Below, piece after piece: positions 3,449 through 22,222 of a stretch of DNA of 64,000 bases. Source of the stretch: an uncultured delta proteobacterium. Lineage in GTDB: Bacteria; Desulfobacterota; Binatia; UBA9968. The stretch lies in contig CAVTUQ010000040.1 in NCBI GenBank assembly GCA_963737905.1, positions 61,870 through 125,869 on the forward strand, in the 5' to 3' direction. The notes beneath the pieces were generated by a model that was given only the letters and a program-made list of their open reading frames with translations, had not been told where the DNA came from and ran no database searches. Both the position numbers and the translations under genes were made by a program. Positions within the stretch are counted from its first letter, which is position 1, and every line of letters begins with the position of its first letter.

Positions 3449-4792
3449 TTATTCAATTCCCAGGGACTTCATCAGCTTCAAAAAATATTTGGCTTCAAGC
3501 CCGAGCAACTTGGCGGCAGCGGACCGATTACCGTGGGTTGTGGCAAGCGCCTTCAGGAGTAACTCTTTTCTCGCCGCATTTAATCCCTCGCGATACGGCT
3601 GCACTCCCGGAGCAGGCGTCGTCCATCCGGCGGCGATCCGACCAGGCAAGTCTTCCAACGTAACCGTTGGGCCCGCACCCAGCACCACCGCCCTTTCGAT
3701 CACGTTCGCCAACTCCCGCACATTGCCGGGCCAGTCATAGGCCTCAAGTTTTGCCTGCGCTTCTTTGGATATCCCGTTGATATTTCTTCTGATAGCCATG
3801 GCATGCTTACGGAGAAAATATTGGCATAGCGCCGCTATGTCTTCCCTCCGCTCTCTCAGCGGCGGAAGACTAATCGCCACAACGTTAAAGCGGTAATAAA
3901 GATCTGCACGGAATAGTCCTTCCTTAACGAAGCGCTCTAAATTCCGATTGGTGGCGGCTATAATCCGAACATCAACGGAAATCGGCGTAACTCCGCCTAC
4001 CCGCTCGAATTCTCGCTCTTGAAGAAAGCGCAATAGCTTCGCTTGGAGTTCCAGAGAGATATCGCCGATCTCGTCGAAAAAGATCGTGCCGCCGTGAGCC
4101 AATTCGATCTTGCCGGTCTTACGCCGGTGCGCGCCGGTAAACGCCCCTTGTTCGTGGCCGAACAGCTCGCTCTCCAGGAGCTCTTTCGACAGACCCACCG
4201 AGTTGATAGCGATAAAAGGTCTGTCTTTTCTTTCACTCCAGTTGTGGATGGAGCGAGCAAAGATCTCTTTGCCGGTGCCGCTTTCGCCGAGGAGTAAGAC
4301 TGTTGCACTGCTGGCAGCAGATTTCTTGGCCAAATCAACGGCCTCCTTCATCGCGGCGCTCTCTCCGACCACCAAACGATAGCGGTCTTCGACCTCCTCC
4401 GAGAGAATCTCGACGCCGCGTTTGAGCCTTTGTCGCTCCAGAGCTTTACGCACTACCAGGGCGATATGATCCGGCTCAAAGGGCCTGGTGATGAAATCGT
4501 AGGCCCCTTCTTTCATCGCCTCCACGGCCCGCTCCATCGTTCCGTAGGCGGTGATCATCACCACAGGAGTATCGTTCTCTTTCTTGCGAAGTTCTTTTAA
4601 AACTTCCAACCCGCTAAGATCCGGCATCATGTAATCGAGAATAATGAGATCGGGCCGCGACGACTCGATTTTTTTAAGCGCCTCGCGACCATCGCTCGCG
4701 GCAACGACCGAGTAGCCCTCGTGGGTCAACTCCTGGCTGAGAATATTTCGGTTGGACGGCTCGTCGTCCACGATCAGAATCTTGTCGCTCAT
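3449..4792 (-). CDS. Sigma54-dependent response regulator (NtrC family: REC-AAA+-Fis HTH)
   Basis: Receiver domain (ILIVDD, LDYMMP), Walker A GESGTGKE, GAFTGA loop, WPGNVREL and a C-terminal HTH (GNRSAAAKLLGL). Confidence 0.96.
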   Translation of the reverse strand: MSDKILIVDDEPSNRNILSQELTHEGYSVVAASDGREALKKIESSRPDLIILDYMMPDLSGLEVLKELRKKENDTPVVMITAYGTMERAVEAMKEGAYDFITRPFEPDHIALVVRKALERQRLKRGVEILSEEVEDRYRLVVGESAAMKEAVDLAKKSAASSATVLLLGESGTGKEIFARSIHNWSERKDRPFIAINSVGLSKELLESELFGHEQGAFTGAHRRKTGKIELAHGGTIFFDEIGDISLELQAKLLRFLQEREFERVGGVTPISVDVRIIAATNRNLERFVKEGLFRADLYYRFNVVAISLPPLRERREDIAALCQYFLRKHAMAIRRNINGISKEAQAKLEAYDWPGNVRELANVIERAVVLGAGPTVTLEDLPGRIAAGWTTPAPGVQPYREGLNAARKELLLKALATTHGNRSAAAKLLGLEAKYFLKLMKSLGIE

Positions 4793-4858
4793 GTCCGCTC
4801 TTAGCTCGGCGTTCTTTGCACTTGCAGGTTAACGGTTCTGCTCCTCACCCTTTACCCC

Positions 4859-6757
4859 TTACCCCGATTTCAACGGCAGCCTCACCGTGAAAACCGATCC
4901 TTTACCCACCTCGCTTTCAACAGCAACCTCTCCGCCCAGAAGCTCCACGAATCTCTTCACAATGGCCAGTCCCAGACCAGTGCCCCGATATTGCTTCGTG
5001 CTCGACGAGTCCCCACGGTGAAACTCCTCGAAGATCTGATTCAGGTCCTCTTTTCCGATCCCAATACCCGTGTCCGAGACCATTAACTGCAATGATCCGT
5101 TTTGTTGCGATGCGGAAATCTTGATTTCACCTTGCTCAGTATACTTTATTGCATTGTCCAAGAGGTTGAGAATAATTTGTCTTAGCTTTTCTCGATCTGT
5201 ATTCAAGGGCCCCATGCCTGGATCGATTTCTCGAACGATGCGAACGCTGCCACCGTTCAAGGTCGGTTCGATGGTTGATAGAGCGCCCTGAATGACTTCG
5301 TTTACCCTAACCGGTTCCACATGCATTTCCATCTTACCTGCTTCGATCTTGCTAAATTCCAGCAGGCTGTCGATTTGATTGAGCAAACGTTCAGCGTTAC
5401 GGAGGAGATCTTCGAGATTTTCTCTTTGCAATCGCGAGATCTGGCCCTCGGTGGCACGCAGGACCAAATGTGCATAGCCGATGACCGCGCTCATAGGAGT
5501 ACGGAGTTCATGGTTTACATTTGCGAGAAATTGCGACTTGAGTTGGCTCGCCTCTTCCAGTTTCTCGTTGGCGACGGTCAGCGCCTGTGTCCGTTCCGCG
5601 ACTTTTCGCTCCAGGCTGGTTTGAGCTTCTTTAAGATGCGCGGTCATCTTGTTGAATTCCTCGGCGAGAGTCTCGATCTCATCCCCGGTCTTGATTTCAA
5701 GCCGGGAATTCAGGTCACCACTACTGATACGTTCCACTCCTTCACGCAAGGCCTGGAGCGGACGCACTACCCGGCGCGCCAGATAGAGGCTCGTCAAGAG
5801 TGCCAATCCCAAACCAACCAAAAGCAGGCTGGAAGTGCGTAAAATTGAAGAGTAGAGAGGCTCACGTGCATCTTCTATCGGTCGTTCAACAAAGACAGCC
5901 CAGTCCAGAATCGGGATCAGAGCATTGGAGCTGAAAACCTTTTGTCCTTGGAGGTTGTAGCTAACGATCGCTCTCGGCTTGAGTCCGCCTTGACTGGGTT
6001 GGAAAGCTTCTTTCAATTGATCCAGGACCACTTTTTTTTGTTGCAGGACTAATTTGATATTCGGGTGGGCAATGAGATCTCCCGCTCGCGTAACCATGTA
6101 GGCATAGCCCGCCTTGCCGACTTTGGTCGCGGATATGATGTCCCAAATATCTCTGAGGCTGAGTTCAGCTCTAAGGACACCTATGACGTCGCCAGTCGAG
6201 TACTCGATGGGGACGGCGATGGTCATGTAAGGTTCGAACTCTCGGAAGTAGGCCGCGCCGAAATAAGGCTTCCCTTGTTTGGATTGCCGAAAGGCTGCGG
6301 ATGCGGAGAAATTTCTTCCGGCATCAGACGAAACAGCGCGGAAGCGCGAGGTCTGCACCCGTATCACACCATTTCCGTCCAGCGCTGCTGCTTCAGTGAT
6401 CGCAGGCTCTAAAAAAAGAAGTCTCTTCAATTCAAACTCGTACGTGGGTGATATGCCATTAGCAGTGATATCTCGACTCTTGGTCGTAGCTTTCATTGAG
6501 GTTACAACATCTTGGATGAATCGCTCAATCTTTAAGGAAGTACCCACCGCGGCATCATGTTGTGCGAGGGCAAGCTGCTCCAGATTTTCCTGATACCGGA
6601 AATAGATTTCTACGAGTCCGCTGGAGATGAGCCCGCCGGCCAACAAGATCACCGAGAAAAAAAAGTAGTCTCGCACCAGCCGTTCACGGCCTGCTCTGCG
6701 CGAAAGATGCAGACGTTCTAGTAACTTCCTCAGTCTCAGTCCGAAATCCACAATCAA
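4859..6757 (-). CDS. Sensor histidine kinase (TM-Cache-TM-HAMP-HisKA-HATPase)
   Basis: Two TM segments around a Cache-like region, HAMP, H-box NHELRTP, N-box NLLDNAIKYT, G-boxes DTGIGI and GTGLGL. Confidence 0.95.
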   Translation of the reverse strand: MIVDFGLRLRKLLERLHLSRRAGRERLVRDYFFFSVILLAGGLISSGLVEIYFRYQENLEQLALAQHDAAVGTSLKIERFIQDVVTSMKATTKSRDITANGISPTYEFELKRLLFLEPAITEAAALDGNGVIRVQTSRFRAVSSDAGRNFSASAAFRQSKQGKPYFGAAYFREFEPYMTIAVPIEYSTGDVIGVLRAELSLRDIWDIISATKVGKAGYAYMVTRAGDLIAHPNIKLVLQQKKVVLDQLKEAFQPSQGGLKPRAIVSYNLQGQKVFSSNALIPILDWAVFVERPIEDAREPLYSSILRTSSLLLVGLGLALLTSLYLARRVVRPLQALREGVERISSGDLNSRLEIKTGDEIETLAEEFNKMTAHLKEAQTSLERKVAERTQALTVANEKLEEASQLKSQFLANVNHELRTPMSAVIGYAHLVLRATEGQISRLQRENLEDLLRNAERLLNQIDSLLEFSKIEAGKMEMHVEPVRVNEVIQGALSTIEPTLNGGSVRIVREIDPGMGPLNTDREKLRQIILNLLDNAIKYTEQGEIKISASQQNGSLQLMVSDTGIGIGKEDLNQIFEEFHRGDSSSTKQYRGTGLGLAIVKRFVELLGGEVAVESEVGKGSVFTVRLPLKSG

Positions 6758-6767: not shown

Positions 6768-7787
6768 TCACTTGATGATCCGGTCTGCCCACGTAAGCAT
6801 CTTGTCTGGAATCGTCACTCCAATTTCCTTAGCCGTCTTGAGGTTGATGACCAGCTCAAACTTTTTCGGCAGCTCTATCGGTAGCTCCGCCGGCTTCGCT
6901 CCTTTGAGAATCTTGTCCACGACATATGCCGCCCTCCGGAACTGCTCAATTTCGTTAGCCCCATAAGCCATAAGGCCGCCGACCTCCGCGAAGTCCGCTC
7001 GCCAGAAAATTCCGGGAAGACGCCTTTTTAAGGCCAAGTCGGCAACGTAGCCCAAGTCTTGACCGATGATTGAACTCGGCAGCAAGACAAAGGCTCCGGC
7101 TTGCCCTCGCGTCGCCCATGTGAACGCGGCGCCTACCGAACGTCTCACCAAACCGGATGGGTGCTTTTTAAACAATTTCACCTCCGCCGATTCCAACTCG
7201 ACTCCTAGTGAACGCGCCGTAACCTCCATACCTTTCATTGTTGGTTCCGCTTCAAATCCCTGGCTCCAGAGCACTGCTACCCGGCTGACCCTTGGAACCG
7301 TTTCTTTGAGCAGTTCGAGCCATTTTCCACCTAGCTCCGTTGACATACCGCTTATGCCCGTCACATTTCCTCCCGGTCGCTCACGGCTTGCCACAATCCC
7401 AACCGCGACCGGATCACCGAGATATGCCATGACGATAGGGATTGTCCTTGTTGCCTGCATGGCGGCACTTAAGGCAGGTGAACGTTGGGGGACGATCACG
7501 TTAACGTTGAGCCGGACCAACTCGGCGGCAAGCCCCGCAAGCCGCCAGTCGTTTCCAAAAGCAAATCGGGGCTCAATAATGATGTTCTGCCCCTCGATGT
7601 AGCCAACCTCGCGCAGACCTTGCCGGAACGACTGAAAGGCGGGAGACGATGGATCGTCGAGCCCGAGATAACCTATTCGTGGAACTTTCGTAGTCTGCTG
7701 AGCTCCGGCGAAGCCTTCAGTTAGAGCCATGAGCGTGATGATCAGAACGCGCAGAAAGATATTTTTCACGTCGCTTGCCTTCGGCAT
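6768..7787 (-). CDS. ABC-type substrate-binding protein (ABC_sub_bind-like), orphan
   Basis: Signal peptide, RIGYL, PGGNVTG, GGLMAYG, DKILKGAKPAELPIE, ELVINLKTAKEIG. No permease or ATPase gene nearby. Confidence 0.92.
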   Translation of the reverse strand: MPKASDVKNIFLRVLIITLMALTEGFAGAQQTTKVPRIGYLGLDDPSSPAFQSFRQGLREVGYIEGQNIIIEPRFAFGNDWRLAGLAAELVRLNVNVIVPQRSPALSAAMQATRTIPIVMAYLGDPVAVGIVASRERPGGNVTGISGMSTELGGKWLELLKETVPRVSRVAVLWSQGFEAEPTMKGMEVTARSLGVELESAEVKLFKKHPSGLVRRSVGAAFTWATRGQAGAFVLLPSSIIGQDLGYVADLALKRRLPGIFWRADFAEVGGLMAYGANEIEQFRRAAYVVDKILKGAKPAELPIELPKKFELVINLKTAKEIGVTIPDKMLTWADRIIK

Positions 7788-7884: not shown

Positions 7885-7899
7885 GCAAAGGAAGTGCCA
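7885..7899 (-). promoter_or_regulatory. Sigma54 -24/-12 promoter for the SBP-HK-RR operon
   Basis: Minus strand reads TGGCAC-TTCCT-TTGC, about 100 bp upstream of the SBP gene and about 100-135 bp from the twin palindromes at 7996-8034. Confidence 0.75.
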
Positions 7900-7995: not shown

Positions 7996-8124
7996 GGTGG
8001 CTTTTAAGACACCCAGGGTGGCGAAAAAGCCACCTTTTTTAATTGTCTAGCAAGCACTTCTTTATCAGCGCTTCCGTTAACTCAATCACTTAGCCGTCTG
8101 TTCTTAGCTGGCACTACGGTTGCT
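7996..8124 (+). promoter_or_regulatory. Sigma54 promoter module copy 1 (twin UAS palindromes, IHF-like site, -24/-12 box)
   Basis: GGTGGC-TTTTAA-GACACC (7996-8013), GGTGGC-GAAAAA-GCCACC (8017-8034), ACTCAATCACTTA (8080-8092), TGGCAC-TACGG-TTGCT (8109-8124). Confidence 0.88.
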
Positions 8125-8369: not shown

Positions 8370-8831
8370 ATGAAACTAAAAATGAGTTCAGTGGTAATGG
8401 TCGCTCTGGCGAGTGGCTTGTTGTTGGTGTCATCACATTTCCAGAGAGTCCATGCAGACGATCGGCATGAAAGAGCCTGCTCAAACAAAACTCTGAACGG
8501 TTCCTATGGAAGCTACAGGACGGGAACCACCAGCACGGGCCCACTGGCCGCAGTCGGCATTCTCTTCTTCGACGGCAACGGAACCGTTTTTGGGAGCCAG
8601 AACATCAGCAGGAACGGAGTCTTCACTTTTGATGTGCCAATCCCCCCCAGTCCGTATGAGGTGGCTGCGGATTGCACTGCCAAGTTCTTAACCGACACCG
8701 GTGACGAGGTTGCCCGGGTTCACATCGTAGACGGGGGAAATGAGTTTTACGAGCTCAGCGAGACGGCGGGTAATGCGGTCTATGGAGTTGCGAAAAAAAT
8801 CCACACTGCCGACGACGACCGCGACCGCTGA
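8370..8831 (+). CDS. Secreted hypothetical protein (beta-rich, two Cys)
   Basis: GGAGG RBS, N-terminal signal peptide ending VHA, CSNKTLNGSYG...YEVAADCT. Confidence 0.8.
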   Translation: MKLKMSSVVMVALASGLLLVSSHFQRVHADDRHERACSNKTLNGSYGSYRTGTTSTGPLAAVGILFFDGNGTVFGSQNISRNGVFTFDVPIPPSPYEVAADCTAKFLTDTGDEVARVHIVDGGNEFYELSETAGNAVYGVAKKIHTADDDRDR

Positions 8832-9520: not shown

Positions 9521-9651
9521 GGTGTCTTTTTACACACCCGTGGTGGCGAAATAGCCACCTCCGTTAGCCTTTCAGTAAGCAACGTCCTTCTCAGCTCTTT
9601 CATCAACTCAATCACTTAGCGCATCTCTCCTCCACTGGCACTACTGTTGCT
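9521..9651 (+). promoter_or_regulatory. Sigma54 promoter module copy 2
   Basis: GGTGTC-TTTTTA-CACACC (9521-9538), GGTGGC-GAAATA-GCCACC (9542-9559), ACTCAATCACTTA, TGGCAC-TACTG-TTGCT (9636-9651). Confidence 0.88.
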
Positions 9652-9724
9652 GAACAGCTCGGTGTGCGTCGTTACCGATCAGTTGCAGCTGAGGAAAAGG
9701 GTTTTCAAAAACTGGGAGGGAAAT

Positions 9725-10291
9725 ATGAAACTAGGGACGATTATAGTAGCGAGCAGAGAACGAGGTCGGACTTTAATATCTCAACTATCTTGGATTTCAT
9801 GGAGCGAAAAGCACCGTGAAACAAATTCTAAAGCTAGTCGGAAAACATGGCGCGCAACGTCTATTGTATATTTTCTGTTTTTTATCTTGTGCGCGAGATC
9901 ATTGGCGGCCGACCCAAAGACAATGGCCTTCCTCGAAGAGCACACCGTTGCTCCGGGTACGCCACAAACTGTCGGCGCTTTGTACGTGGTGCCGCCTGGA
10001 CGCAAAGCGTACGTCTCTAACATGGTCTGCGAGATCCGGTCGTTCAACGGTCCTGGCTACTCGTTCATGTTTCTCGTGGCTTTCGCCAATGCAACAATAG
10101 CGGGACCGGCGACAAGTACAGCGGGAATGAATCCGCTAGTCTGCGTTAATTCCGACTACATCACCACCAATACATCAAGCCCCGGATTTACGCTTTTACC
10201 TGGCAACTACATCTACGCTCTGTACGGCAATTTAGGGAATAATATGGATTTTCAAATGCTGTCTGCTTTCATTTTTGAGGATGATCTGTAA
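9725..10291 (+). CDS. Hypothetical exported protein
   Basis: GGGAGGG RBS and ATG at 9725; hydrophobic segment SIVYFLFFILCARSLAA followed by a beta-rich domain. Confidence 0.65.
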   Translation: MKLGTIIVASRERGRTLISQLSWISWSEKHRETNSKASRKTWRATSIVYFLFFILCARSLAADPKTMAFLEEHTVAPGTPQTVGALYVVPPGRKAYVSNMVCEIRSFNGPGYSFMFLVAFANATIAGPATSTAGMNPLVCVNSDYITTNTSSPGFTLLPGNYIYALYGNLGNNMDFQMLSAFIFEDDL

Positions 10292-10358
10292 GTACGATCG
10301 AACAGGAAAATTGGGTCAAATTGCCGAAGTGAACTTACCGGAAATTTGATTAAGCGAC

Positions 10359-10679
10359 ATGTTTGATCGACGGGGGGAGGTAATTAGGGTCAGGTCTTTA
10401 TATTTATATTTGATTCTGCTGAAAAGGTTTTCGGCAAAAATTAGGACACAAATTTTCGCTCACAGATGCCGTATAACGAACGATCGCAGCTTGGTTAATC
10501 ATCCTGAGAACAGTGTGACAACAACGATCCTTTTTAACGAGACACCGACGTTTGGGGGTTTCGTGGCGGCCGCTGGAGAGGTTTCCTTTATCCCGGAGAC
10601 GAATCGAATCTTTGTGCGCTTCAAAGACAGCAGCAATGTTACGCGCGGCTTAACCAGTGTGACCGTAAGAACTCAATGA
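10359..10679 (+). other. Possible gene fragment (C-terminal beta-rich piece)
   Basis: The 3' half (TILFNETPTFGGFVAAAGEVSFIP...RIFVRF) looks coding; the 5' half is AT-rich and spans a repeat motif. Confidence 0.3.
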
Positions 10680-10952
10680 CATGGAGAGGGAAAGGAGGAT
10701 ATTTTCATCTGATGGATGCATTGTTTCCGAGGCACTGATGCCTTAGCGGGTCGCAACTCCATAACCATGAACTACCAGCCTTGAGCGAGAAAGGTCCCGA
10801 GAGCCGGTCAGCCGATACAAGCAAAAGTCTATCTTGCCTTCGGCTCCGGCTCCCGCGACGGTCACAGTTTCTGTGTGCGTGGCACCGGGAGCCCGACGTT
10901 CTTAAATTCATTGAGACACATCTCAAAATAGGAAGGGGCGAAATAGAGCTAG

Positions 10953-14345: not shown

Positions 14346-14478
14346 CGTACCTCGACCTTTAGAGATGGAATTCGACGGCGCTCTACCTCACGCTGGACAA
14401 TCGCGAAATGATTTCTTCGAAATGATACGGCCCGCGAATTGTTTCTCGGCACCCTCGCCCAAAAGTCAACGAGCATTG

Positions 14479-14919: not shown

Positions 14920-15197
14920 CTGCGATCTTGCACAATGGCCTTCGAGGTGGGTTTACCCGAGACCCTTACTAACCGAACTCGCCTCAGGGGCTTTTGGGTC
15001 GGCAACACCAAGAGACCTCGTGCCGCAAGTCTAGCGAGCCTCGCTTCCAAGCTCACGGCTTTCTCCGCGCTCTTGATCGGCTGAATCAGCGCAATCGGGT
15101 TGCCTCTTTCAGTGACGATCACCTCTTCTCCTTGCTTGGTCCGTCGAAGGTATTGGGTAAGACAATTCTTAAGTTCTTTGACGCCAACCGTGCTCAC
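14916..15197 (-). CDS. Phd/YefM-family antitoxin
   Basis: VGVKELKNCLTQYLRRTKQGEEVIVTERGNPIA; GGAGG RBS before GTG 15197; overlaps the vapC start. Confidence 0.9.
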   Translation of the reverse strand: MSTVGVKELKNCLTQYLRRTKQGEEVIVTERGNPIALIQPIKSAEKAVSLEARLARLAARGLLVLPTQKPLRRVRLVRVSGKPTSKAIVQDRR

Positions 15198-15213
15198 AAG
15201 ATGATCCTCCAAT

Positions 15214-15230
15214 GTAGCTATGGTAGCTAC
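15214..15230. promoter_or_regulatory. Putative Phd operator palindrome
   Basis: GTAGCTA-TGG-TAGCTAC immediately upstream of the antitoxin RBS. Confidence 0.6.
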
Positions 15231-15394
15231 TTTAGGTCTAGAGTACAAACTCTAGCAGGCCGCTGCCTGCAAACAGACTTTTTCATCAACTTTCTGTTGC
15301 TGCTTTATTTCAGAACTGGCTACCTTTTTGAATATTGCGCCAGTACCATCGGAGTCGCCGCCGAAAAAGTCGCGTGTCCCCTCTCATTTCACAT

Positions 15395-15525
15395 GGTGGC
15401 TTTTTACACACCCAGGGTGTTGAAAAAGCCACCTTTGTTAAGCTTCCAGTAAGCAACCTCTTTTTCAGCTCTCTCATCAACTCAATCACTTAGCCCGCCT
15501 CCTGTCCGGTGGCATTACGGTTGCT
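15395..15525 (+). promoter_or_regulatory. Sigma54 promoter module copy 4
   Basis: GGTGGC-TTTTTA-CACACC (15395-15412), GGTGTT-GAAAAA-GCCACC (15416-15433), ACTCAATCACTTA, TGGCAT-TACGG-TTGCT (15510-15525). Confidence 0.88.
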
Positions 15526-15597: not shown

Positions 15598-16211
15598 ATG
15601 AACATGTTTGACTTCACTGGCATCATCATCAAAGGCGGCCGGTCATGGTCCCCCTTTTGGCCTGCTCGATCATCTCCCTCGCCGTGGTCATAGAGCGGAT
15701 CCTCTTTTGGCGCAAAGCCCGCTCCTGCGGACCGGTGGAAGAGCTCCTCCAACTGGTCGAGCGCCGAGAGTTCGCCAAAGCGACCGAACTGGGCCAGAGT
15801 GTCGATTTGCCAGCCGCCCGGGTCTTAACCGCCGGCCTCGAACACCGAAACCCTTCGCTTGCCAAAGCCCTAGAAGTAGCGGCACAGGCGGAGATCCCGG
15901 TTCTCAAAAAGCGCCTGACCATTCTCAACACCATCATCACTCTGGCACCCCTTCTGGGGTTACTGGGAACCATCACCGGTATGATCAGTTCTTTCGGCAT
16001 CATGTCGGAGGCGGGCCTCGGCCAGCCCCACGCGGTTACCGGCGGCGGCGCCGAGGCCCTGATCGCCACCGCGGCGGGACTCTTGATCGCCATTCTTACC
16101 CTCGTCCCATACAACTATTTCTCCAATCGAGCCGAACGGGAACTGGAAGAGATTGAGTATTACGGCTCGCGCCTGGAGCTGCTATTGGCCGAGCAGGAAG
16201 GGAAAAACTAG
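15598..16211 (+). CDS. exbB: MotA/TolQ/ExbB proton-channel protein (1-bp frameshift near 15640)
   Basis: APLLGLLGTITGMI and EALIATAAGL motifs. The upstream MNMFDFTGIIIKGG is 1 nt out of frame with MVPLL at 15645. Confidence 0.85.
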
Positions 16212-16403
16212 CCCAGTGTTCAACAGAACGACTTTAAGAAAGTTTATCGCGCCAAGACGCCAAGCACGCAAAGAAAGACATGTACTTATTTTCCGAACCT
16301 TGGCACCCCCTTCGACGTCGCTCGGGACATGCTTTGCGCCTTTGCGCGAGACATTGTTTTTCCGATCTCTTTCTCAATTCAGAATTTCAAAGGTAAGTGC
16401 CTA

Positions 16404-16510
16404 ATGCGGCTTTCGCGCAGAACCATCAAGAGAGCCCGCATCGAGATCATTCCGATGATTGATACGATCTTTTTCCTGCTGGTCTTTTTCATGATCTCGA
16501 CCCTTGGCCG
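16404..16510 (+). pseudogene. exbD: ExbD/TolR N-terminal fragment
   Basis: RARIEIIPMIDTIFFLLVFFMISTL, after which homology breaks off. Confidence 0.8.
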
Positions 16511-16689
16511 AGGACACGATGTTCGACTACAAGTGCACCATATGGGAAACCCGCACTTATCGCCATTCTCTTCAGTACAACATTCGCTGGATCATGGAGG
16601 TTCGAACACGAGATAATCGTTTTACAAATAGACAAATATAAAGCAACCGGAACCGTCGAGCCATGTAGCTGATTCGAATTCTTCACTTT

Positions 16690-16788: not shown

Positions 16789-17061
16789 CTAGAGCGCTAC
16801 TTTAAGTCGGGGTTGCACTAGACGGGACTTTGGAGGAGGAGCCAATTTCTTGACCCGTACGTGGACCACCGGCTGATTCTTTTCCCTGTGGCGGCGAGCC
16901 AGGGCCAGATTCTTGCGACACAGAGACGGATCATCCTCCGGCAGAAGCACCACTAGGGCATTGTTCGGAATTTTATCCGCCACCTCGGGATGCTCGACGA
17001 GGTACTTATTAAATTCCGTGTTTAGTAGGATATTTTTATAGGCGAAACTCTTTTTATTCAC
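16789..17061 (-). CDS. DUF5647-like putative antitoxin
   Basis: Paralog of 2719-2997; GTG start overlaps the upstream stop; GGAGG RBS. Confidence 0.72.
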   Translation of the reverse strand: MNKKSFAYKNILLNTEFNKYLVEHPEVADKIPNNALVVLLPEDDPSLCRKNLALARRHREKNQPVVHVRVKKLAPPPKSRLVQPRLKVAL

Positions 17062-17372
17062 TTCGTTTCCTCCCGAAAATATCTTTCTCGGTAGAGCTCC
17101 CAATTGGCTTTCACATCTTCCTGTGCGTAAGAGAAAGCGTCGCTAAAATTTGGAAAGTGCAGCAACCTCTTTTCCTTTGTCCCGTCCGGGTTCATGACAT
17201 CCGTGTGAGGCTGTCCATGCGCTGTGTCATAACGGACTATAGCCATCCACTGATCCTTCAGAAGCGTTTCATACTGAACAACAAATGCCGTGATTTTGCC
17301 TCGATCCTTTCTGAACCGAACCCGGATACGATCCTGGCCGGTGATCATTTGGACATAGGCTTTCTCAACCAC
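17058..17372 (-). CDS. Putative toxin with RYDTAHG motif (DUF7718-like)
   Basis: FVVQYE...AIVRYDTAHGQPHTD; translationally coupled to the downstream small gene. Confidence 0.72.
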   Translation of the reverse strand: MVEKAYVQMITGQDRIRVRFRKDRGKITAFVVQYETLLKDQWMAIVRYDTAHGQPHTDVMNPDGTKEKRLLHFPNFSDAFSYAQEDVKANWELYRERYFREETK

Positions 17373-17466
17373 TAACTTGCTATTCTTTACGAACAGCCAA
17401 ATAAGTCAACTCCTAAAGGCAGGTACGTGGAAGAACAAAGGCTCGGGAGTCCTTTTCAACCTATTT

Positions 17467-17646
17467 TCAGAGTAAGCGAGAACGCCCCAAAGAATTCTTT
17501 GCCACACCATGACGATTGGCGACATCATTCTGCACAATTAGGGCCGGGCGCGTCTTCCGAATTTCTGCACCTATCGTGGGATCAAAATTGACGAGATAAA
17601 CCTCACCCCTCCGAGGTCGTACTAACGGCGTTGGGCTTTGGGCCAT
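17467..17646 (-). pseudogene. mazF: Truncated MazF/PemK toxin
   Basis: Manual translation: MAQSPTPLVRPRRGEVYLVNFDPTIGAEIRKTRPALIVQNDVANRH, then unrelated sequence and a stop (59 aa). Confidence 0.85.
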
Positions 17647-17870
17647 ACTTCTTCATCGATTAGGAACCATTCTTCCGCAATTGCTCGGTCGCGCTCAAAT
17701 CTGCGAACGGATCCTTCCTTGATCTTTTTTTTGAGACTCTTCCTCGCCGCCCCTCGAAAATATTGTTTCAGAGCTTCGTCGACGAGCCGGCTTCGGTCGC
17801 CTTTACCCGCCACTCGTTCCATGAGGCGCACAGTTGACTCTGGCAAGGTGATATTAATGCGCTTGTACAT
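17622..17870 (-). CDS. Ribbon-helix-helix antitoxin (MazE/NdoAI-like)
   Basis: KRINITLPES...DRSRLVDEAL RHH pattern; overlaps the mazF start. Confidence 0.8.
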   Translation of the reverse strand: MYKRINITLPESTVRLMERVAGKGDRSRLVDEALKQYFRGAARKSLKKKIKEGSVRRFERDRAIAEEWFLIDEEVWPKAQRR

Positions 17871-18178: not shown

Positions 18179-18306
18179 GGTGGCTTTTAAGACACCCACG
18201 GTGGCGAAAAAACCACCTTTTTTAATTGTCTAGCAAGCACTTCTCTATAGCTCTTCCATCAACTCAATCACTTAGCCGTCTCTTCTCCGCTGGCATTACC
18301 GTTGCT
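18179..18306 (+). promoter_or_regulatory. Sigma54 promoter module copy 5
   Basis: GGTGGC-TTTTAA-GACACC (18179-18196), GGTGGC-GAAAAA-ACCACC (18200-18217), ACTCAATCACTTA, TGGCAT-TACCG-TTGCT (18291-18306). Confidence 0.88.
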
Positions 18307-18527
18307 GAGTAATCGCACGGATGATTACACACGACTCGTGCTTGAGGACAAGCGATTTATCTAAACAAATCACACGGAAGATCGTGACGAGAAAATTGAG
18401 TTTTAAGCCCCGCGGATCTCTGGTGAATGATCCCGAATCGCGGTGCAGCTTCCTTCCAACGACTAAAAAGACTCATGGTCCATTTGTGTTCCCTTCGTCG
18501 CATCATGACCAGCGAGACTTGGTGGCC

Positions 18528-19148
18528 ATGAGGGTTAGCAAAGTATACACTGAGAACTTTCTGGCATCGCTTCTATGGCTGATGATGGCTGGCTGCGCGG
18601 TTTCAAGTTGTGCTCTGACCGGCATACGAGCCGTAGGTCCAGCGAACGCACCGCCGACTCTTTCCGGTCGGTGGCAGCCAGCAGACGGCGCACTGCCACA
18701 TCAAGGGATAGCCATAGACGGTCGTGGTTATTTTGATTATGAAATTTTAGCTCCTTCAGACGGGATCGTTGTGCGCATTAGGGGTGATCATGTCACAATT
18801 CGTCATGGCCTAGGTTCGAACAAACAGGACATATACACGGACCATTTCCATGTGGACGGCACATCGCTCACGGAGGGGGATCAGGTAAAAAGAGGACAGA
18901 GCATAGGCTTGATTGGTAGGGGCACGTACACCCTCGTTCCCCATTATCATTACGTGGTCAGGAAAAGAGAAGGTCGCGGAAAGTTTATCGTGCTAGACCC
19001 CATCGATTACTGGTTTGGAATTGACGAGTACAAGGAAAAGCTGGGAAAAAAACTCGTTACTGGACCATTTGTAATCCCTTGCTTCGATCCAAATGTGAAT
19101 TACCCAAAAGAGCCGATAAGATTTACATATCCAGTCAAATGCAAGTGA
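18528..19148 (+). CDS. M23 peptidase-family exported protein, possible lipoprotein
   Basis: Signal peptide with MAGC, PHQGIAI, EILAPSDGIV, GDQVKRGQSIGLIG and PHYH. Confidence 0.8.
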   Translation: MRVSKVYTENFLASLLWLMMAGCAVSSCALTGIRAVGPANAPPTLSGRWQPADGALPHQGIAIDGRGYFDYEILAPSDGIVVRIRGDHVTIRHGLGSNKQDIYTDHFHVDGTSLTEGDQVKRGQSIGLIGRGTYTLVPHYHYVVRKREGRGKFIVLDPIDYWFGIDEYKEKLGKKLVTGPFVIPCFDPNVNYPKEPIRFTYPVKCK

Positions 19149-19242
19149 TTCCTTCGTTCCAGGCACCAACACGGCATCTAGGGTGTCCTCTTTCCTTTTG
19201 ACTGTAGATTGCCTTCTGGTTGTGATATTCTTTTGATTGAGT

Positions 19243-19434
19243 ATGGAAAAGGTAGTTCATAAATTTCGCTCCTTTGAAGATGCCGATAACGCCGACTACG
19301 AATATTACCGCGCCCTCTCCGGAAACGAAAAACTGCAACTGCTGCTTGACTTGATCATGCCCGAGAACCCCGATGCGGCCACTGTCGCGCGATCTGCGCG
19401 AGTTCATCCACTTACTGAACACGAACCGTGTTAA
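19243..19434 (+). CDS. Small protein partnered with the nucleotidyltransferase (putative TA component)
   Basis: 63 aa, DYEYYRALSGNEKLQLL; overlaps the downstream gene. Confidence 0.65.
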   Translation: MEKVVHKFRSFEDADNADYEYYRALSGNEKLQLLLDLIMPENPDAATVARSARVHPLTEHEPC

Positions 19435-19837
19435 GTACGTGATCGTCGGCGCCTGGGCGCTCGCGTTCCACGGGCGGCCACGTTATACCGGCGATCTCGA
19501 TATCTTTGTTGCCCGAGACGATGAGAACGCCGACAAACTGATGGCGGTCATCGAAGCTTTCGGATTTAAGGATGCCGGTATCAGGCGCGAAGATTTCCTG
19601 CAGGTCGATCACGTCATTCAGCTTGGGCGTGAGCCCAACCGTATCGATATCCTTACCGGAATCAGCGGAGTCTCATTCGACGAAGCATGGGCCAACCGAG
19701 AGTCAGGGAAAGTCGCCGATATTGCCGTATTTGTCATCAGCCGAGACCTTCTGATCAAGAATAAACGGGCGGCTAACCGAGACAAAGATCAGGGAGATAT
19801 CAAGCTATTGGAAAGAACTCGGCCGCCACGTCATTAG
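19373..19837 (+). CDS. Nucleotidyltransferase-like protein (DUF6036/AbiEii-like)
   Basis: YVIVGAWALAFHGRPRYTGDLDI (G...DxD), RIDIL and KRAANRDKDQGDI. Confidence 0.85.
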   Translation: MRPLSRDLREFIHLLNTNRVKYVIVGAWALAFHGRPRYTGDLDIFVARDDENADKLMAVIEAFGFKDAGIRREDFLQVDHVIQLGREPNRIDILTGISGVSFDEAWANRESGKVADIAVFVISRDLLIKNKRAANRDKDQGDIKLLERTRPPRH

Positions 19838-19882: not shown

Positions 19883-20013
19883 TGTGTCTTTTTACACACC
19901 TTATGGTGTCTAAAAAAACACCTTCTTAATCGTCCAGCCCGCATCGTTTTTAGCAGCTCTCTCATTAACTCAATCACTTAGCTCATCTGTTCTTCCCTGG
20001 CACTGCGGTTGCT
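19883..20013 (+). promoter_or_regulatory. Sigma54 promoter module copy 6
   Basis: TGTGTC-TTTTTA-CACACC (19883-19900), GGTGTC-TAAAAA-AACACC (19905-19922), ACTCAATCACTTA, TGGCAC-TGCGG-TTGCT (19998-20013). Confidence 0.85.
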
Positions 20014-20103
20014 CAGTTGCCGCTTAGAAATCATTACGCCGCCAGATTCTATGGTGTCGAAATCACGCTTCGGCATCATCGACAGCGGGAAGGGGTCATT
20101 CCT

Positions 20104-22083
20104 ATGAAACAGACAAGAAATATCGCTCGACGTTGGTTCGCTTCGATCCTAGTGCTGCTCATGGCCACATTAACGCTGGAGCCAGTTGCACTCGCAGGGG
20201 CGGATCCGAGCTGGATCCCTACCGGCAGCCTCAACATAACCCGCTCGGATCACACAGCGACACTGCTAGCCAACGGGAAAGTACTGGTCGTAGGAGGCTA
20301 CAACTATGAAGATGGTGGTGATCTCAACAGCGCAGAGTTGTACGACCCATCCACGGGCACATGGAGCGTCACTGGCAACCTCAATACACCTCGGTCTGGT
20401 CAGACCGCGACACTACTGCCAAACGGTAAGGTACTGGTCGTAGGAGGCTACAACTATGAAGGTGGTGGTGATCTCGACAGCGCAGAGTTGTACGACCCAT
20501 CCACGGGCACATGGAGCGTCACCGGTAGCCTCAGCACGGGTCGCCGCGGTCACACAGCGACGCTGTTGCCCAACGGTAAGGTACTGGTCGTTGGGGGCTC
20601 CAACTATAACAACTATCCACCAGCGGGTTCTCTCAACAGTTCAGAGCTCTATGACCCGGCTACAGGAACGTGGGCGGTCGCCAACGGCCTCAACGTAGCT
20701 CGCTCAAGTCACACAGCAACGCTGCTGTCCAACGGAAAAGTTCTGATCGCGGGAGGATTCACGGGATTCTCCACCAGCGGTCTTTGCCCATGCATAGATT
20801 TTGTTACGAACAGTGCGGAGCTCTATGATCCGATCACGGGGACATGGAGCTCCACGGCCAACCTCAACGCGGAGCGTGGTCTTCACTCAGCGACGTTGCT
20901 CCAGAACGGCAAGGTCCTGGTCGCGGGAGGAACCAATGGCACCCTTATCGATATTGACGAACTTGTCCCTCTCACTAGCGCAGAATTATACGATCCAGCC
21001 ACAGGAACATGGACCCTTACCGGCAGTCTCAATACAGCCCGCAATTCTCATACAGCAACGCTGCTTCCCAATGGCAAGGTCTTGGCCGCAGCCGGATATT
21101 ATACGGGTACGGCGGAGTTATACGACCCAGCCACGGAAACGTGGAGTTTCACCGCCAGTCTCAACACACCTCGCTCAGGTCACACAGCGACGCGACTCCA
21201 AAACGGCCAGGTGCTGATTGCGGGAGGCGATAATGGCTCCATTCCTAGCAGCGCGGAGCTATATAATTCCCATCGGCCCGCACCAGTGGATTTCGATGGC
21301 GACGGCAGAAGTGACATCGCAGTGTACCGCGATGGTGCTTGGTTCATCGTGCGATCATCGGACGGAGGAGTGACAGCGACAGATTGGGGAGGTCTGCCAC
21401 AGGACAAACCGGTACCAGCGGACTATGATGGAGATGGGAAAGTGGACCTAGCGGTCTACCGAGATGGGACGTGGTTTATTCTTCGATCTTCGGATGGAGT
21501 GCAACTATCACTGGCTTGGGGTGGTTTGCCGCAGGACATACCGCTACCTGCAGATTATGACGGCGACGGGAGGGCAGATCTAGCGGTGTATCGTGATGGA
21601 ATGTGGTTCATCTTACGTTCTTCAGACGGAGGCCAGACCACTGTGGGATGGGGCGGAGCGTTAGCGGATGTGCCGGTACCGGCAGACTATGATGGCGACG
21701 GGAAAGCAGATATCGCGGTGTACCGTAGTGGGACGTGGTTTATCATCCGATCATCGGACGGTGCGGTGCAGGTGTCAGCGGGTTGGGGCGGAGCGGCTCA
21801 GGACATACCGCTACCGGCAGACTACGACGGTGATGGAAAGGCAGATATGGCGATTTACCACGACGGGTTGTGGTTCATCTTACGTTCTTCCGATAGCGGC
21901 CAGATAGCCGTGGGCTGGGGAGGACTGCCACAGGATGTACCGGTGCCGGCAGACTTTGACGGTGACGGCAAGGCAGACGTGGCGCTCTACCGTAATGGAA
22001 TGTGGTTCATCATTCGATCCTCGGATGGAGGAGTGACAGCGACAGGATGGGGAGGGGCAGCGGAGGATATTCCGCTGAACTGA
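20104..22083 (+). CDS. Secreted Kelch-repeat plus FG-GAP/VCBS-like repeat protein
   Basis: Signal peptide, about 7 HTATLL.NGKVLV.GG...AELYDP repeats, then about 6 PADYDGDGKADxAVYR.G.WFI repeats. Confidence 0.92.
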   Translation: MKQTRNIARRWFASILVLLMATLTLEPVALAGADPSWIPTGSLNITRSDHTATLLANGKVLVVGGYNYEDGGDLNSAELYDPSTGTWSVTGNLNTPRSGQTATLLPNGKVLVVGGYNYEGGGDLDSAELYDPSTGTWSVTGSLSTGRRGHTATLLPNGKVLVVGGSNYNNYPPAGSLNSSELYDPATGTWAVANGLNVARSSHTATLLSNGKVLIAGGFTGFSTSGLCPCIDFVTNSAELYDPITGTWSSTANLNAERGLHSATLLQNGKVLVAGGTNGTLIDIDELVPLTSAELYDPATGTWTLTGSLNTARNSHTATLLPNGKVLAAAGYYTGTAELYDPATETWSFTASLNTPRSGHTATRLQNGQVLIAGGDNGSIPSSAELYNSHRPAPVDFDGDGRSDIAVYRDGAWFIVRSSDGGVTATDWGGLPQDKPVPADYDGDGKVDLAVYRDGTWFILRSSDGVQLSLAWGGLPQDIPLPADYDGDGRADLAVYRDGMWFILRSSDGGQTTVGWGGALADVPVPADYDGDGKADIAVYRSGTWFIIRSSDGAVQVSAGWGGAAQDIPLPADYDGDGKADMAIYHDGLWFILRSSDSGQIAVGWGGLPQDVPVPADFDGDGKADVALYRNGMWFIIRSSDGGVTATGWGGAAEDIPLN

Positions 22084-22171
22084 ACCACGGAAAGGATTTG
22101 GATAGACAACGCCTTACCAAAAAACGGAGAGTAGAAACGCGCTGGGAGTCTTCTTCTTGAGGCAGCTTAAC

Positions 22172-22222
22172 GATCAGGGAGATATCAAGCTATTGGAGAG
22201 AACTCGGCCCCCGCGTCGTTAG
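22172..22222 (+). repeat. 51-bp direct repeat of the nucleotidyltransferase 3' end (19787-19837)
   Basis: GATCAGGGAGATATCAAGCTATTGGA(A/G)AGAACTCGGCC...TTAG, 4 mismatches in 51 bp. Confidence 0.9.

What the first reader, a model, noticed from the sequence alone, without database searches (positions are those of the whole stretch)
3449..22222. Self-contained sigma54 'promoter-cassette' regulon: one sensor/activator operon facing six copies of a complete promoter module, each with different cargo
Seen: six ~130-bp modules start at 7996, 9521, 11975, 15395, 18179 and 19883, all on the + strand with nearly fixed spacing. Each has two 18-bp palindromes GGTG(G/T)C-N6(A/T-rich)-(G/C)(A/C)CACC about 21 bp apart centre to centre, then a (C/T)AAGCA tract in five copies, then ACTCAA(T/C)CACTTA, then TGGCA(C/T)-N5-TTGCT. 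Downstream cargo: a secreted beta protein, an exported unknown, a Kelch protein, ExbB/D, an M23-like protein and a Kelch/FG-GAP protein. Established: TGGCAC-N5-TTGC is the sigma54 -24/-12 box; GAFTGA bEBPs bind tandem palindromic UAS about 100 bp upstream; IHF (WATCAANNNNTTR, one mismatch here) bends the DNA between them. Inference: the adjacent response regulator (3449-4792) is the activator, and the whole promoter has been copied as a portable unit that recruits new envelope genes into a local regulon. The result is integron-like in layout, but with one promoter per cassette and no visible integrase.
Basis: partly seen in the sequence, partly recalled or inferred. Interest (0 to 1): 0.9.

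Follow-up and report, generated by a model that had tools for sequence, protein, structure and literature searches.

The report
Repeated sigma-54 promoter modules beside their regulator
An uncultured soil bacterium (Candidatus Binatia) carries six copies of one complete sigma-54 promoter next to a sensor/activator operon, each driving different, mostly exported proteins, which shows how a whole promoter can be reused to wire changing genes into one signal response.

Summary
Six ~130-bp modules (window 7996, 9521, 11975, 15395, 18179, 19883, all +) each carry two 18-bp palindromes 21-22 bp apart, an IHF-like box and TGGCA(C/T)-N5-TTGC. A profile of them finds exactly these six in the 6.7-Mb assembly. 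The same module family lies beside the orthologous binding-protein/kinase/NtrC-type regulator operon in seven other Binatia genomes and occurs on 12 metagenome contigs, with different cargo. Similarity stops right after the -12 element. New here: a sigma-54 promoter facing the regulator operon shares the first palindrome pair in 8 of 8 genomes, which implies autoregulation. The regulator's DNA-reading helix also tracks the palindrome type. Corrections: modules 3 and 6 drive paralogous Kelch genes; cargo 3 is a pseudogene and ExbD is truncated. The array holds toxin-antitoxin genes and an IS fragment. Most module copies are old paralogs, not recent copies. I found no recombinase and no fixed recombination boundary, so "integron-like" is a layout analogy only. 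No binding, rpoN dependence or transcription was tested. This is a new variant of a known kind: a local enhancer-binding-protein regulon combined with promoter reuse.

The parts
3449..4792 (-). NtrC-family response regulator (REC, sigma-54 AAA+ domain with GAFTGA, Fis-type HTH); the proposed activator
   Evidence: Pfam Sigma54_activat 2.8e-69, Response_reg 1.2e-34, HTH_8 3.3e-6. GAFTGA is visible in the translation. No NCBIfam equivalog passes its cut-off; the best is AtoC at 475.6 against 714.
4859..6757 (-). Sensor histidine kinase (dCache, HAMP, HisKA, HATPase)
   Evidence: Pfam. Orthologs at 56-69% identity lie beside module arrays in relatives.
6768..7787 (-). Periplasmic substrate-binding protein (PF04392), first gene of the operon; probable co-sensor
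   Evidence: Pfam ABC_sub_bind 1.2e-43. TrpX-like at 113.6 bits, below the 390 cut-off. The co-sensor role is inference.
7885..7899 (-). Sigma-54-type -24/-12 element facing the regulator operon (reads TGGCAC-N5-TTGC on the - strand), about 105 bp from UAS1 of module 1
   Evidence: An equivalent element lies at the same place in 8 of 8 genomes (3 with TTGC, 5 with TTGT at -12).
7996..8123 (+). Module 1: UAS1 7996-8013, UAS2 8017-8034, IHF-like box 8080-8092, -24/-12 8109-8123
8370..8831 (+). Cargo 1: 153-aa protein with an N-terminal hydrophobic signal-like segment; no family
   Evidence: No Pfam or NCBIfam hit. A homolog follows a module on metagenome contig L146.
9049..9387 (+). Remnants of the M23 lipoprotein N-terminus and of the nucleotidyltransferase gene; a deleted copy of 18527-19521
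   Evidence: Repeat families D8, D12, D14, D16 at 81-96% identity
9521..9650 (+). Module 2
9647..11858 (+). Cargo 2: exported unknown (ORF 9647-10291; true start uncertain), ORF 10359-10679, and a metallo-beta-lactamase-fold protein 10953-11858
   Evidence: An MBL homolog is also cargo in L015.
11975..12103 (+). Module 3
12094..14411 (+). Decayed cargo 3: truncated Kelch gene (12094-12531), IS200-type transposase fragment (12347-12592), hydrolase fragment (12761-13009), 256-aa exported unknown (13073-13843), Kelch remnant (14211-14411)
   Evidence: (D7, D11, D13)
14479..15248 (-). VapC (PIN) / Phd-YefM-type toxin-antitoxin pair between cassettes
   Evidence: It is 94% identical in DNA to a pair beside a module in G082.
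15395..15524 (+). Module 4
15645..16616 (+). Cargo 4: ExbB (15645-16211) and a truncated ExbD (16329-16616)
   Evidence: MotA_ExbB 1.7e-30. ExbD matches only profile positions 5-28 of 128.
16789..17870 (-). DUF5647/DUF7718 gene pair, a MazF/PemK fragment (17467-17646) and an upstream small ORF (17622-17870)
18179..18305 (+). Module 5 (90% identical to module 1; homology runs about 40 nt further, into the leader)
   Evidence: (D10)
18321..19148 (+). Cargo 5: M23-peptidase lipoprotein (probable start near 18528, at MRVSK...)
   Evidence: Peptidase_M23 1.3e-9. The lipobox-like LMMAGC is visible. The start position is inferred.
19237..19837 (+). Small ORF plus DUF2204-type nucleotidyltransferase (possible toxin-antitoxin-like pair)
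   Evidence: The pair reading is inference.
19883..20012 (+). Module 6 (UAS1 begins TGTG; palindrome centres 22 bp apart)
20017..22083 (+). Cargo 6: Kelch plus FG-GAP repeat protein with a signal-like N-terminus (probable start near 20104)
   Evidence: Kelch_1 4.4e-47, FG-GAP_3 4.2e-22
22169..22222 (+). Remnant of the 3' end of the nucleotidyltransferase gene, with no module after it
   Evidence: Repeat D15, 91% to 19784-19837
24843..26089 (-). PLP-dependent (threonine-synthase-like) gene, split into two overlapping ORFs here. It is the conserved far boundary of the array in G021, L015, L113 and L150.

Best explanation
This is a chromosomal, lineage-restricted sigma-54 regulon of a Candidatus Binatia bacterium. 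One operon encodes a periplasmic binding protein, a dCache histidine kinase and an NtrC-type enhancer-binding response regulator.

Inferred mechanism, step by step:
- On signal, the phosphorylated regulator binds the twin 18-bp palindromes centred near -131 and -110.
- An IHF-type protein bends the DNA at the ACTCAA-N4-TTA box near -49.
- The regulator's AAA+ ring then opens sigma-54 RNA polymerase bound at TGGCA(C/T)-N5-TTGC.

The first palindrome pair serves two divergent sigma-54 promoters, one for cargo 1 and one for the regulator operon itself, which gives positive autoregulation. Five more complete copies of the promoter head five further transcription units in a 14-kb array that ends before a conserved threonine-synthase-like gene.

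The promoter copies are paralogs. Most are old and are kept by selection over their whole length; only modules 1 and 5 look recent. The genes behind them are mostly exported hydrolases, repeat proteins and ExbB/D. They are exchanged, duplicated and lost by ordinary recombination, so each genome has its own cargo set under one signal.

Shown: the anatomy, the copy distribution, the linkage to the operon and the cargo turnover. Inferred: binding, bending, sigma-54 dependence, the signal and the physiological role.
For: 1. Complete sigma-54 promoter anatomy at fixed distances in 6 of 6 modules.

2. In the alignment of 17 copies from six genomes, conservation covers UAS1, UAS2, the ACTCAA-N4-TTA block and -24/-12, then stops directly after -12, as expected for DNA upstream of a transcription start. 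The first two of the four N in the box vary between copies while the flanks do not.

3. The copies are exclusive to this locus in the own assembly.

4. Conserved linkage to the operon:
- The orthologous operon (regulator 76-81% identical) lies divergently beside module arrays in G021 (3 copies), G016 (3), L015 (2), L016 (2) and L017 (1, at a contig end).
- G082 has 1 full copy plus remnants.
- G088 has a diverged form: a twin-palindrome pair between divergent sigma-54 promoters, with only the palindrome part matching the profile.
- Of 80 loci encoding relatives of the regulator, only the three most similar carry the module.
- Homologs at 60-67% identity (L019-L022, L027) sit in other contexts with other upstream repeats.

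5. An independent metagenome scan used only the IHF-like box plus -24/-12 as pattern. It returned 12 of 80 loci with full modules that include the twin palindromes (17 copies). Contigs long enough to show context again carry the regulator (L123 88%, L164 71%) or the threonine-synthase-like boundary (L150).

6. An operon-facing sigma-54-type promoter about 100 bp from the shared palindromes is present in 8 of 8 genomes.

7. The HTH helix motif GLE[AST][KR]Y is present in 10 of 10 module-linked regulators and in none of 13 more distant regulator homologs, L019-L031. Other upstream sites were seen for five of these, L019-L022 and L027.

8. The host has one rpoN and two IHF/HU-family genes. One passes the IHF-beta cut-off at 125.9 against 115.

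9. Cargo differs between genomes: subtilase, M23, alpha/beta hydrolases, MBL, PAP2/VCPO, beta-helix, He_PIG, Calx-beta and DUF4915.

10. Sigma-70-like sites are not enriched: 10 found against 9.8 expected.
Against: - No experiment and no RNA data: no RNA run was available, so the transcription starts are unverified.
- The genome holds 31 strong sigma-54 activator genes, so another activator cannot be excluded by sequence alone.
- In 5 of 8 genomes the operon-facing element has TTGT instead of TTGC at -12, which departs from the GC rule.
One of the two IHF/HU-type genes is below the IHF-alpha cut-off, at 98.3 against 111.
- The HTH/palindrome correlation is confounded by kinship.
- UAS2 also fits a simple terminator pattern in 3 of 6 modules.
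- Several cargo genes here are broken. In G082 the kinase and regulator are themselves disrupted by insertion sequences and a frameshift. The system may therefore be decaying in some lineages.
- The two same-genus genomes searched (G001, G002; 880 and 420 contigs) show no module and only 50-54% kinase matches.
- Module trees rest on about 135 columns with moderate support.
Confidence: 0.78

Rival explanations
1. The modules are sigma-54 promoters, but a different one of the genome's enhancer-binding proteins activates them. Adjacency to this regulator would then be incidental or reflect a different relation.
For: There are 31 strong Sigma54_activat matches in the assembly. No binding data exist. 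The regulator fits no named equivalog.
Against: Linkage of the module to this operon is kept in 8 of 8 genomes and on contigs L123 and L164. The palindromes are shared with an operon-facing sigma-54-type promoter. The HTH motif tracks the palindrome type. In L123 the sensor half was exchanged while the regulator and modules stayed together.
Confidence: 0.07
2. The module is primarily a mobile or recombination element (MITE/REP-like repeat or attC-like site), and its sigma-54 match is secondary.
For: It is a repeated unit of about 130 bp with palindromes. The array contains toxin-antitoxin genes, an IS200 fragment and pseudogenes, as integron arrays often do. One metagenome contig joins module 1 to module 3 (weak).
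Against: There are six copies only, all at one locus and all oriented toward the downstream gene. I noticed no terminal inverted repeats in the module alignment; target-site duplications and terminal repeats were not searched for. No integrase or transposase is associated in the window or in 7 relatives, apart from unrelated insertion sequences in G082. Conservation ends at -12 rather than at a symmetric element end. Homology ends differ between pairs, with modules 1 and 5 extending about 40 nt further. The module family is old and syntenic.
Confidence: 0.03
3. The twin palindromes act mainly as transcription terminators or insulators between cassettes, or as operators for a repressor, not as activator sites.
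For: UAS2 is a 6-bp GC-rich stem with a 6-nt loop followed by a T-run in modules 1 and 5. The simple terminator scan flags UAS2 in 3 of 6 modules.
Against: The T-run is not conserved in the other modules or across genomes, whereas the palindrome arms are. Terminator-like sites are not enriched: 17 found against 15.4 expected. Two sites two helical turns apart at about -110 and -131 upstream of a sigma-54 promoter is the usual activator geometry (established knowledge, as also summarised for the PrsR motif in PMC1569441, passages read). The first pair lies between divergent promoters, where no upstream transcript needs terminating.
Confidence: 0.05

Closest known systems
Local enhancer-binding-protein regulons (activator gene co-located with, or divergent from, its sigma-54 promoters), as catalogued for Desulfovibrio vulgaris (PMC4641369; passages read by term search)
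   Same: The activator gene lies next to and divergent from sigma-54 promoters that carry a shared upstream motif. Autoregulated cases are also described there.
   Different: Here the whole region of about 130 bp, spacers included, is a paralogous copy six times over, not just a shared binding motif. The promoters form a one-directional array with cargo that changes between genomes.
PEP-CTERM / PrsK-PrsR system (Haft et al. 2006, PMC1569441; abstract and passages read)
   Same: Many single-gene units for exported proteins are each preceded by a long intergenic region holding a conserved activator motif, a spacer and a sigma-54 -24/-12 motif. They are controlled by an NtrC-type response regulator and a kinase.
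   Different: The regulator scores 421.9 against a 502.6 cut-off for the PrsR model TIGR02915, so it is not a member. I saw no PEP-CTERM tails in the cargo I read. PrsR targets are spread over the genome and their spacer varies (mean 62.8, SD 10.6 nt in the paper). Here the copies are clustered and the spacing is fixed.
Putative mobile promoters / promoter reuse (Nijveen, Matus-Garcia and van Passel 2012, PMC3575422; main text read, part 1 of 2)
   Same: Highly similar upstream regions lie in front of unrelated coding sequences within one genome, and some are shared across genera.
   Different: That survey was generic (-150 to -50 from the start codon, at least 80% identity over 50 nt) and had no mechanism or regulator assigned. 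Here the repeated unit is a fully interpretable sigma-54 promoter tied to one regulator at one locus.
Integron gene-cassette arrays
   Same: A one-directional array of unrelated, often exported or unknown genes, with toxin-antitoxin genes interspersed, next to a fixed platform. Content varies between relatives.
   Different: I found no integrase and no attI or attC sites. Each unit has its own promoter, whereas integron cassettes are mostly promoterless (recalled knowledge). The boundaries of homology are not fixed.

Membership tests
Sigma-54-dependent promoter | -24 GG and -12 GC elements with the TGGCAC-N5-TTGC spacing | tested here: met
   6 of 6 modules match TGGCA[CT]-N5-TTGC. All 17 copies from six genomes keep it. 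7 of the genome's 164 matches lie in this 16-kb stretch.
Sigma-54-dependent promoter | Transcription requires rpoN and an enhancer-binding ATPase | not testable with these tools
   One rpoN gene is present. No RNA run was available.
Enhancer-binding protein upstream activating sequence | Tandem dyad-symmetric sites about 100-150 bp upstream of the promoter, phased by whole helical turns | tested here: met
   Palindrome centres fall at about -131 and -110, 21 bp apart in 5 of 6 modules and 22 bp in one.
Enhancer-binding protein upstream activating sequence | Bound by the cognate activator | not testable with these tools
   Only indirect evidence: linkage in 8 of 8 genomes, the shared bidirectional site and HTH covariation.
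NtrC-family response-regulator enhancer-binding protein | REC domain, sigma-54 AAA+ domain with the GAFTGA loop, and a C-terminal Fis-type HTH | tested here: met
   Pfam domains; GAFTGA in the translation.
Named NtrC-family equivalogs (AtoC, NtrC, PrsR, ZraR, NtrX) | Score above the NCBIfam equivalog cut-off | tested here: not met
   AtoC 475.6 against 714; NtrC 430.1 against 558.6; PrsR 421.9 against 502.6; NtrX 401.4 against 600; ZraR 394.6 against 760.
IHF-assisted sigma-54 promoter | An IHF site between the UAS and the promoter, and IHF genes in the host | tested here: inconclusive
Its flanks are conserved and its first two N variable across 17 copies. There are two IHF/HU-family genes, one above the IHF-beta cut-off and one below the IHF-alpha cut-off. 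Bending was not tested.
Integron | IntI tyrosine recombinase, attI, and attC sites flanking the cassettes | tested here: not met
   No recombinase appears among the ORFs annotated in window 1-26000 or in the relatives' arrays. The only repeats between cassettes are the promoter modules. I did not run a dedicated attC model.
MITE / REP-type dispersed repeat | Many copies dispersed over the genome in either orientation | tested here: not met
   Six copies at one locus in one orientation. In relatives all copies lie on the contig that carries the regulator.

The most novel reading that the evidence does not exclude
The array is a 'promoter-first' gene-recruitment platform. Selection maintains pre-wired sigma-54 promoter modules, in some cases together with the leader and a signal or lipoprotein peptide. 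The coding parts behind them are swapped by recombination at or just after the module, so a lineage can keep re-equipping one signal response with new exported proteins. Interspersed toxin-antitoxin genes help to hold the array. This would be a recombinase-independent functional analog of an integron, with regulation built into every cassette.

Findings that point this way:
- Copies that pair across genomes in the tree drive different cargo: ExbB against DUF4915, and Kelch/FG-GAP against DUF4915.
- Different mature domains share N-terminal lipoprotein signals and C-terminal tails.
- A VapBC pair beside a module is 94% identical between genomes whose regulators are 76.5% identical.
Probability: 0.3. 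Interest if true: 0.75.

Novelty: new variant of a known kind. Interest (0 to 1): 0.5.

Why it matters
This locus gives a mechanistically readable natural case of whole-promoter reuse. Activator sites, bending site and core promoter are copied as one unit and kept for a long time, while the regulated genes turn over. That bears on how regulons grow and rewire. It also suggests a compact, tightly off/on sigma-54 part (module plus regulator) that could be tested as a portable expression cassette. It provides a first testable regulatory circuit for Binatia, a lineage known to me only from metagenome assemblies (all 14 nearest records are MAGs). The unknown exported cargo proteins (beta-helix, Kelch/FG-GAP, DUF4915, several with no family) are flagged as co-regulated, which narrows the search for their role.

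Tried and rejected
- Rfam scan of the whole window at gathering thresholds: 0 matches. No known RNA element explains the modules or leaders.
- Sequencing-run search: no RNA holder listed, so expression and transcription starts could not be examined.
- DNA contigs of four runs laid on window 3400-23300 were short and fragmentary. One contig of X5 joins 8095 to 12079 (module 1 to module 3), and others join Kelch repeats. At 90% likeness in metagenomes these may come from repeats or other strains. I treat them as a weak hint of cassette loss only.
- Uncovered parts are not evidence of anything.
- BLAST of module 1 against 61 relatives found only G021 and G016, plus a 30-nt match in G006 that I regard as chance.
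- The kinase-based search was needed to find G082 and G088.
- L110 and L112-L116 (G011, G009, G015, G070) have related kinases but no module.
- 68 of the 80 metagenome pattern hits were unrelated sigma-54 promoters or, in one case (L130), a partial copy.
- My script for cargo N-termini failed to orient 19 of the 35 copies (printed 'no') and found no ORF for 2 more. I use only the rows it printed.
- An early tree of 17 copies suggested that all six window copies form one clade. With 35 copies this dissolved, so I dropped the reading that the whole array is a recent expansion.
- A NifA-type TGT-N10-ACA reading of the palindromes was considered and dropped, because the spacing does not fit (inspection strings; the NifA motif is recalled).
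- Literature: no paper holds both 'Binatia' and 'sigma-54'. None holds three of 'sigma54-dependent promoters', 'promoter duplication', 'gene cassettes', 'NtrC-family' and 'variable region'. One search listed general sigma-54 papers, none with 'duplicated promoter' or 'paralogous promoters'. One search was too broad to be useful.
- Supplementary files were not consulted.

Full report
OBSERVATION.
- An alignment of 200-nt slices around the six starts has mean column identity 73% and 74 invariant columns. 73 of these fall between the first palindrome and the -12 element.
- Exact coordinates: each module has UAS1 and UAS2 (18 bp each, centres 21 bp apart, 22 bp in module 6), the box ACTCAA-N4-TTA, and TGGCA(C/T)-N5-TTGC.
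- With a start placed 12 nt after the C of TTGC, the palindrome centres lie near -131 and -110 and the box at -49/-50.
- 11 of 12 palindromes fit GGTG-N10-CACC.
- (C/T)AAGCA is present in 5 of 6 modules.

IS IT MORE THAN CHANCE?
- A profile of the six, run over the whole assembly (6,715,063 bases, 46 contigs; the window is C40:61870-125869), returns six full-length hits, all here and all on the + strand (E 7e-37 to 9e-42).
- The same run returns the palindromes' own reverse-strand echoes, and nothing else better than E 0.7.
- Tandem GGTG-N10-CACC pairs occur 5 times in the assembly, all here.
- The -24/-12 pattern occurs 164 times on both strands, 7 times within window 7000-23000.
- The assembly is 87.5% complete with 6.7% contamination, so these counts describe the assembled part.

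GENES.
- On the - strand lie a PF04392 periplasmic binding protein (6768-7787), a dCache-HAMP-HisKA-HATPase kinase (4859-6757) and a REC/sigma-54 AAA+/HTH_8 response regulator (3449-4792).
- The regulator carries GAFTGA. It passes no NCBIfam equivalog cut-off; the best is AtoC at 475.6 against 714.
- Behind the modules lie, in order:
  1. A 153-aa protein of no family.
  2. An exported unknown and an MBL-fold protein.
  3. A truncated Kelch gene followed by an IS200-type fragment, a hydrolase fragment, a 256-aa unknown and a Kelch remnant.
  4. ExbB and a truncated ExbD.
  5. An M23 lipoprotein.
  6. A Kelch/FG-GAP protein.

- Between cassettes lie a VapC/Phd-type pair, a DUF5647/DUF7718 pair, a MazF fragment and a DUF2204 nucleotidyltransferase.
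- Repeats larger than the module show segmental duplication:
  - 9049-9387 is a deleted copy of 18527-19521.
  - 22169-22222 copies the end of the nucleotidyltransferase gene.
  - Modules 3 and 6 were duplicated together with the start of their Kelch gene.
  - Modules 1 and 5 share about 40 nt of leader.

ORGANISM AND RELATIVES. The nearest regulator loci in public genomes are named Candidatus Binatia, or 'delta proteobacterium' / Syntrophobacteraceae MAGs.
- The module recurs beside the orthologous operon in G021 (3 copies; regulator 77%, kinase 64%, binding protein 45% identical) and G016 (3 copies, at a contig end).
- It recurs in L015 (2 copies), L016 (2) and L017 (1, at a contig end). These are the three of 80 regulator loci with the highest identity (81, 80 and 78%); the other 77 loci have none.
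- A kinase search over 61 family genomes, with fetched flanks, added two more:
  - G082 has one full copy and remnants. Its kinase and regulator are disrupted by insertion sequences and a frameshift.
  - G088 has one diverged twin-palindrome pair between divergent sigma-54 promoters.
- Regulator homologs at 60-67% identity sit in other contexts, with sigma-54 promoters preceded by different repeats.
- The two same-genus genomes searched have no module and only 50-54% kinase matches. They are fragmented, at 880 and 420 contigs.
- A metagenome scan used a pattern made only of the IHF-like box and -24/-12. It gave 80 loci, of which 12 carry full modules including the twin palindromes, 17 copies in all.
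- Among these 12:
  - L123 holds a regulator 88% identical with three modules, but a different sensor half: only the kinase's C-terminal half matches, and the upstream genes differ.
  - L164 holds the whole operon plus a module driving an FG-GAP protein.
  - L150 ends at the threonine-synthase-like gene.
- That gene also bounds the array in G021, L015 and L113, and in the window at 24843-26089.

WHAT THE CONSERVATION SAYS.
- In the 17-copy alignment the conserved blocks are the two palindromes, a TCCAGC(A/G)AGC stretch, the block around ACTCAA-N4-TTA and the -24/-12 element.
- Similarity ends directly after -12. This is the signature of DNA that works upstream of a transcription start, not of a transcribed or mobile element.
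- Within the IHF-like box the first two of the four N vary while the flanks are fixed.

NEW FINDING: AN OPERON-FACING PROMOTER.
- On the - strand at 7885-7899 lies TGGCAC-N5-TTGC, pointing at the regulator operon, about 105 bp from UAS1.
- An equivalent element is present at the same place in 8 of 8 genomes: three with TTGC and five with TTGT at -12.
- The first palindrome pair is therefore a shared, bidirectional activator site, which implies positive autoregulation. It ties the palindromes to this operon more tightly than adjacency does.
- In addition, all 10 module-linked regulators have GLE[AST][KR]Y in the second HTH helix. The 13 more distant regulator homologs in that comparison (L019-L031) have GLH(R/K)TH, GLHEKY, GLQRTY or other variants; other upstream sites were seen for five of them.
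- L018 (70% identical, contig too short to show context) also has the module-linked motif.
- This correlation is confounded by kinship.

HOST FACTORS. The assembly holds one rpoN, 31 strong sigma-54 activator matches and two IHF/HU-family genes. One is above the IHF-beta cut-off (125.9 against 115). The other is best matched by IHF-alpha but falls below its cut-off (98.3 against 111).

AGE AND SPREAD OF THE COPIES.
- With 17 copies, the six window modules formed one clade with support 0.82.
- With 35 copies they interleave with copies from L123, L111, L152 and L187. Examples: module 4 pairs with L187 (0.91), and module 6 with a copy in L123 (0.87). Only modules 1 and 5 form a tight recent pair (0.98; 90% identical).
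- Most copies are thus old paralogs that have stayed 74-81% identical over the whole 135 bp. I read this as selection on the full architecture. Gene conversion is not excluded. The trees are short and only moderately supported.
- Copies that pair across genomes drive different genes: ExbB against DUF4915, and Kelch/FG-GAP against DUF4915.
- Cargo across genomes includes an S8 subtilase, M23 peptidases, several alpha/beta hydrolases, MBL, PAP2/VCPO, beta-helix, He_PIG, Calx-beta, DUF3108-like and DUF4915-TPR proteins.
- Different mature domains share a lipoprotein N-terminus or a C-terminal tail. The window's M23 protein matches hydrolases of G021 and G016 over only 49 and 33 residues, so recombination also happens inside the cargo genes.
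- The VapBC pair next to module 4 is 94% identical in DNA to one next to a module in G082, whereas the regulators are 76.5% identical.

RIVALS.
- Another activator among the 31 is possible but fits the linkage data poorly.
- A mobile-element or attC reading fails on copy number, orientation, the asymmetric end of conservation and the absence of a recombinase.
- A terminator reading of UAS2 is supported only by a T-run in some copies (3 of 6 flagged), and that T-run is not conserved across genomes.
- Sigma-70-like and terminator-like sites are at background: 10 against 9.8, and 17 against 15.4.

COMPARISON WITH WHAT IS KNOWN.
- Activator genes co-located with or divergent from their sigma-54 promoters are common (PMC4641369, passages read).
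- Many exported-protein genes, each with an activator motif plus a sigma-54 motif under an NtrC-type regulator, are known from the PEP-CTERM/PrsR system (PMC1569441, abstract and passages read).
- Reuse of near-identical promoter regions before unrelated genes has been surveyed as 'putative mobile promoters' (PMC3575422, main text read, part 1 of 2).
- What I did not find in print is a clustered array of complete, paralogous sigma-54 promoter modules with cargo that turns over between genomes (searches). Supplementary files were not seen, and subscription journals are outside the library.

VERDICT. The integron comparison is a layout analogy only. I class this as a new variant of a known kind, of moderate interest.

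Noticed in passing
window 24843-26089 (-): The PLP-dependent threonine-synthase-like gene that bounds the array is split into two overlapping ORFs (25202-26089 and 24843-25235). It is one 416-aa ORF in G021. This is either a frameshift or an assembly error.
   Followed up: partly
window 16789-17372 (-) and 2719-2997 (-): A DUF5647/DUF7718 gene pair lies inside the array, and a second DUF5647 gene lies just beyond the regulator. The pair may be an uncharacterised two-gene module of toxin-antitoxin type.
   Followed up: no
window 14479-15248 (-) versus L111 4645-5414: The VapBC pair is 94% identical in DNA between this genome and G082, much more than the neighbouring regulator (76.5%) or kinase (71.6%). 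This suggests recent exchange of the pair. In both genomes it lies directly upstream of a module.
   Followed up: partly
window 18528-19148; L011 11398-12378; L013 8280-9203; L016 4967-5845: Cargo lipoproteins with different catalytic domains (M23 against alpha/beta hydrolase) share an N-terminal lipoprotein signal. The window's M23 protein and G016's hydrolase also share a C-terminal tail of about 28 residues. This points to domain shuffling within the array.
   Followed up: partly
L123 8422-11578: In the metagenome contig whose regulator is most similar (88%), the sensor side is different. It has an NMT1-like binding protein, an SCO1/SenC-like protein, and a kinase that matches only in its C-terminal half. 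The input appears to have been swapped while the regulator and modules were kept.
   Followed up: partly
L111 (G082) 8156-9067 and 11964-15769: An IS3-type transposase lies between the shared palindromes and the first cargo. Further insertion sequences and a frameshift disrupt the kinase and regulator, so the system looks as if it is being lost in that genome.
   Followed up: partly
window 8196-8243: The 247-nt leader of cargo 1 holds a 10-codon ORF preceded by a strong ribosome-binding-like AAGGAGG. It may be a chance ORF or a leader peptide.
   Followed up: no
L187, L123, L150, L189, L111: DUF4915(-TPR) proteins without an obvious signal peptide are the commonest cargo in relatives. They start only about 16 nt after the predicted transcription start and are often followed by a large beta-helix protein with a conserved N-terminal domain.
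   Followed up: partly
window 1599-2561 (+): An NMT1-like periplasmic binding protein is conserved next to the regulator in the window and in G021 (84-87% identical).
   Followed up: no
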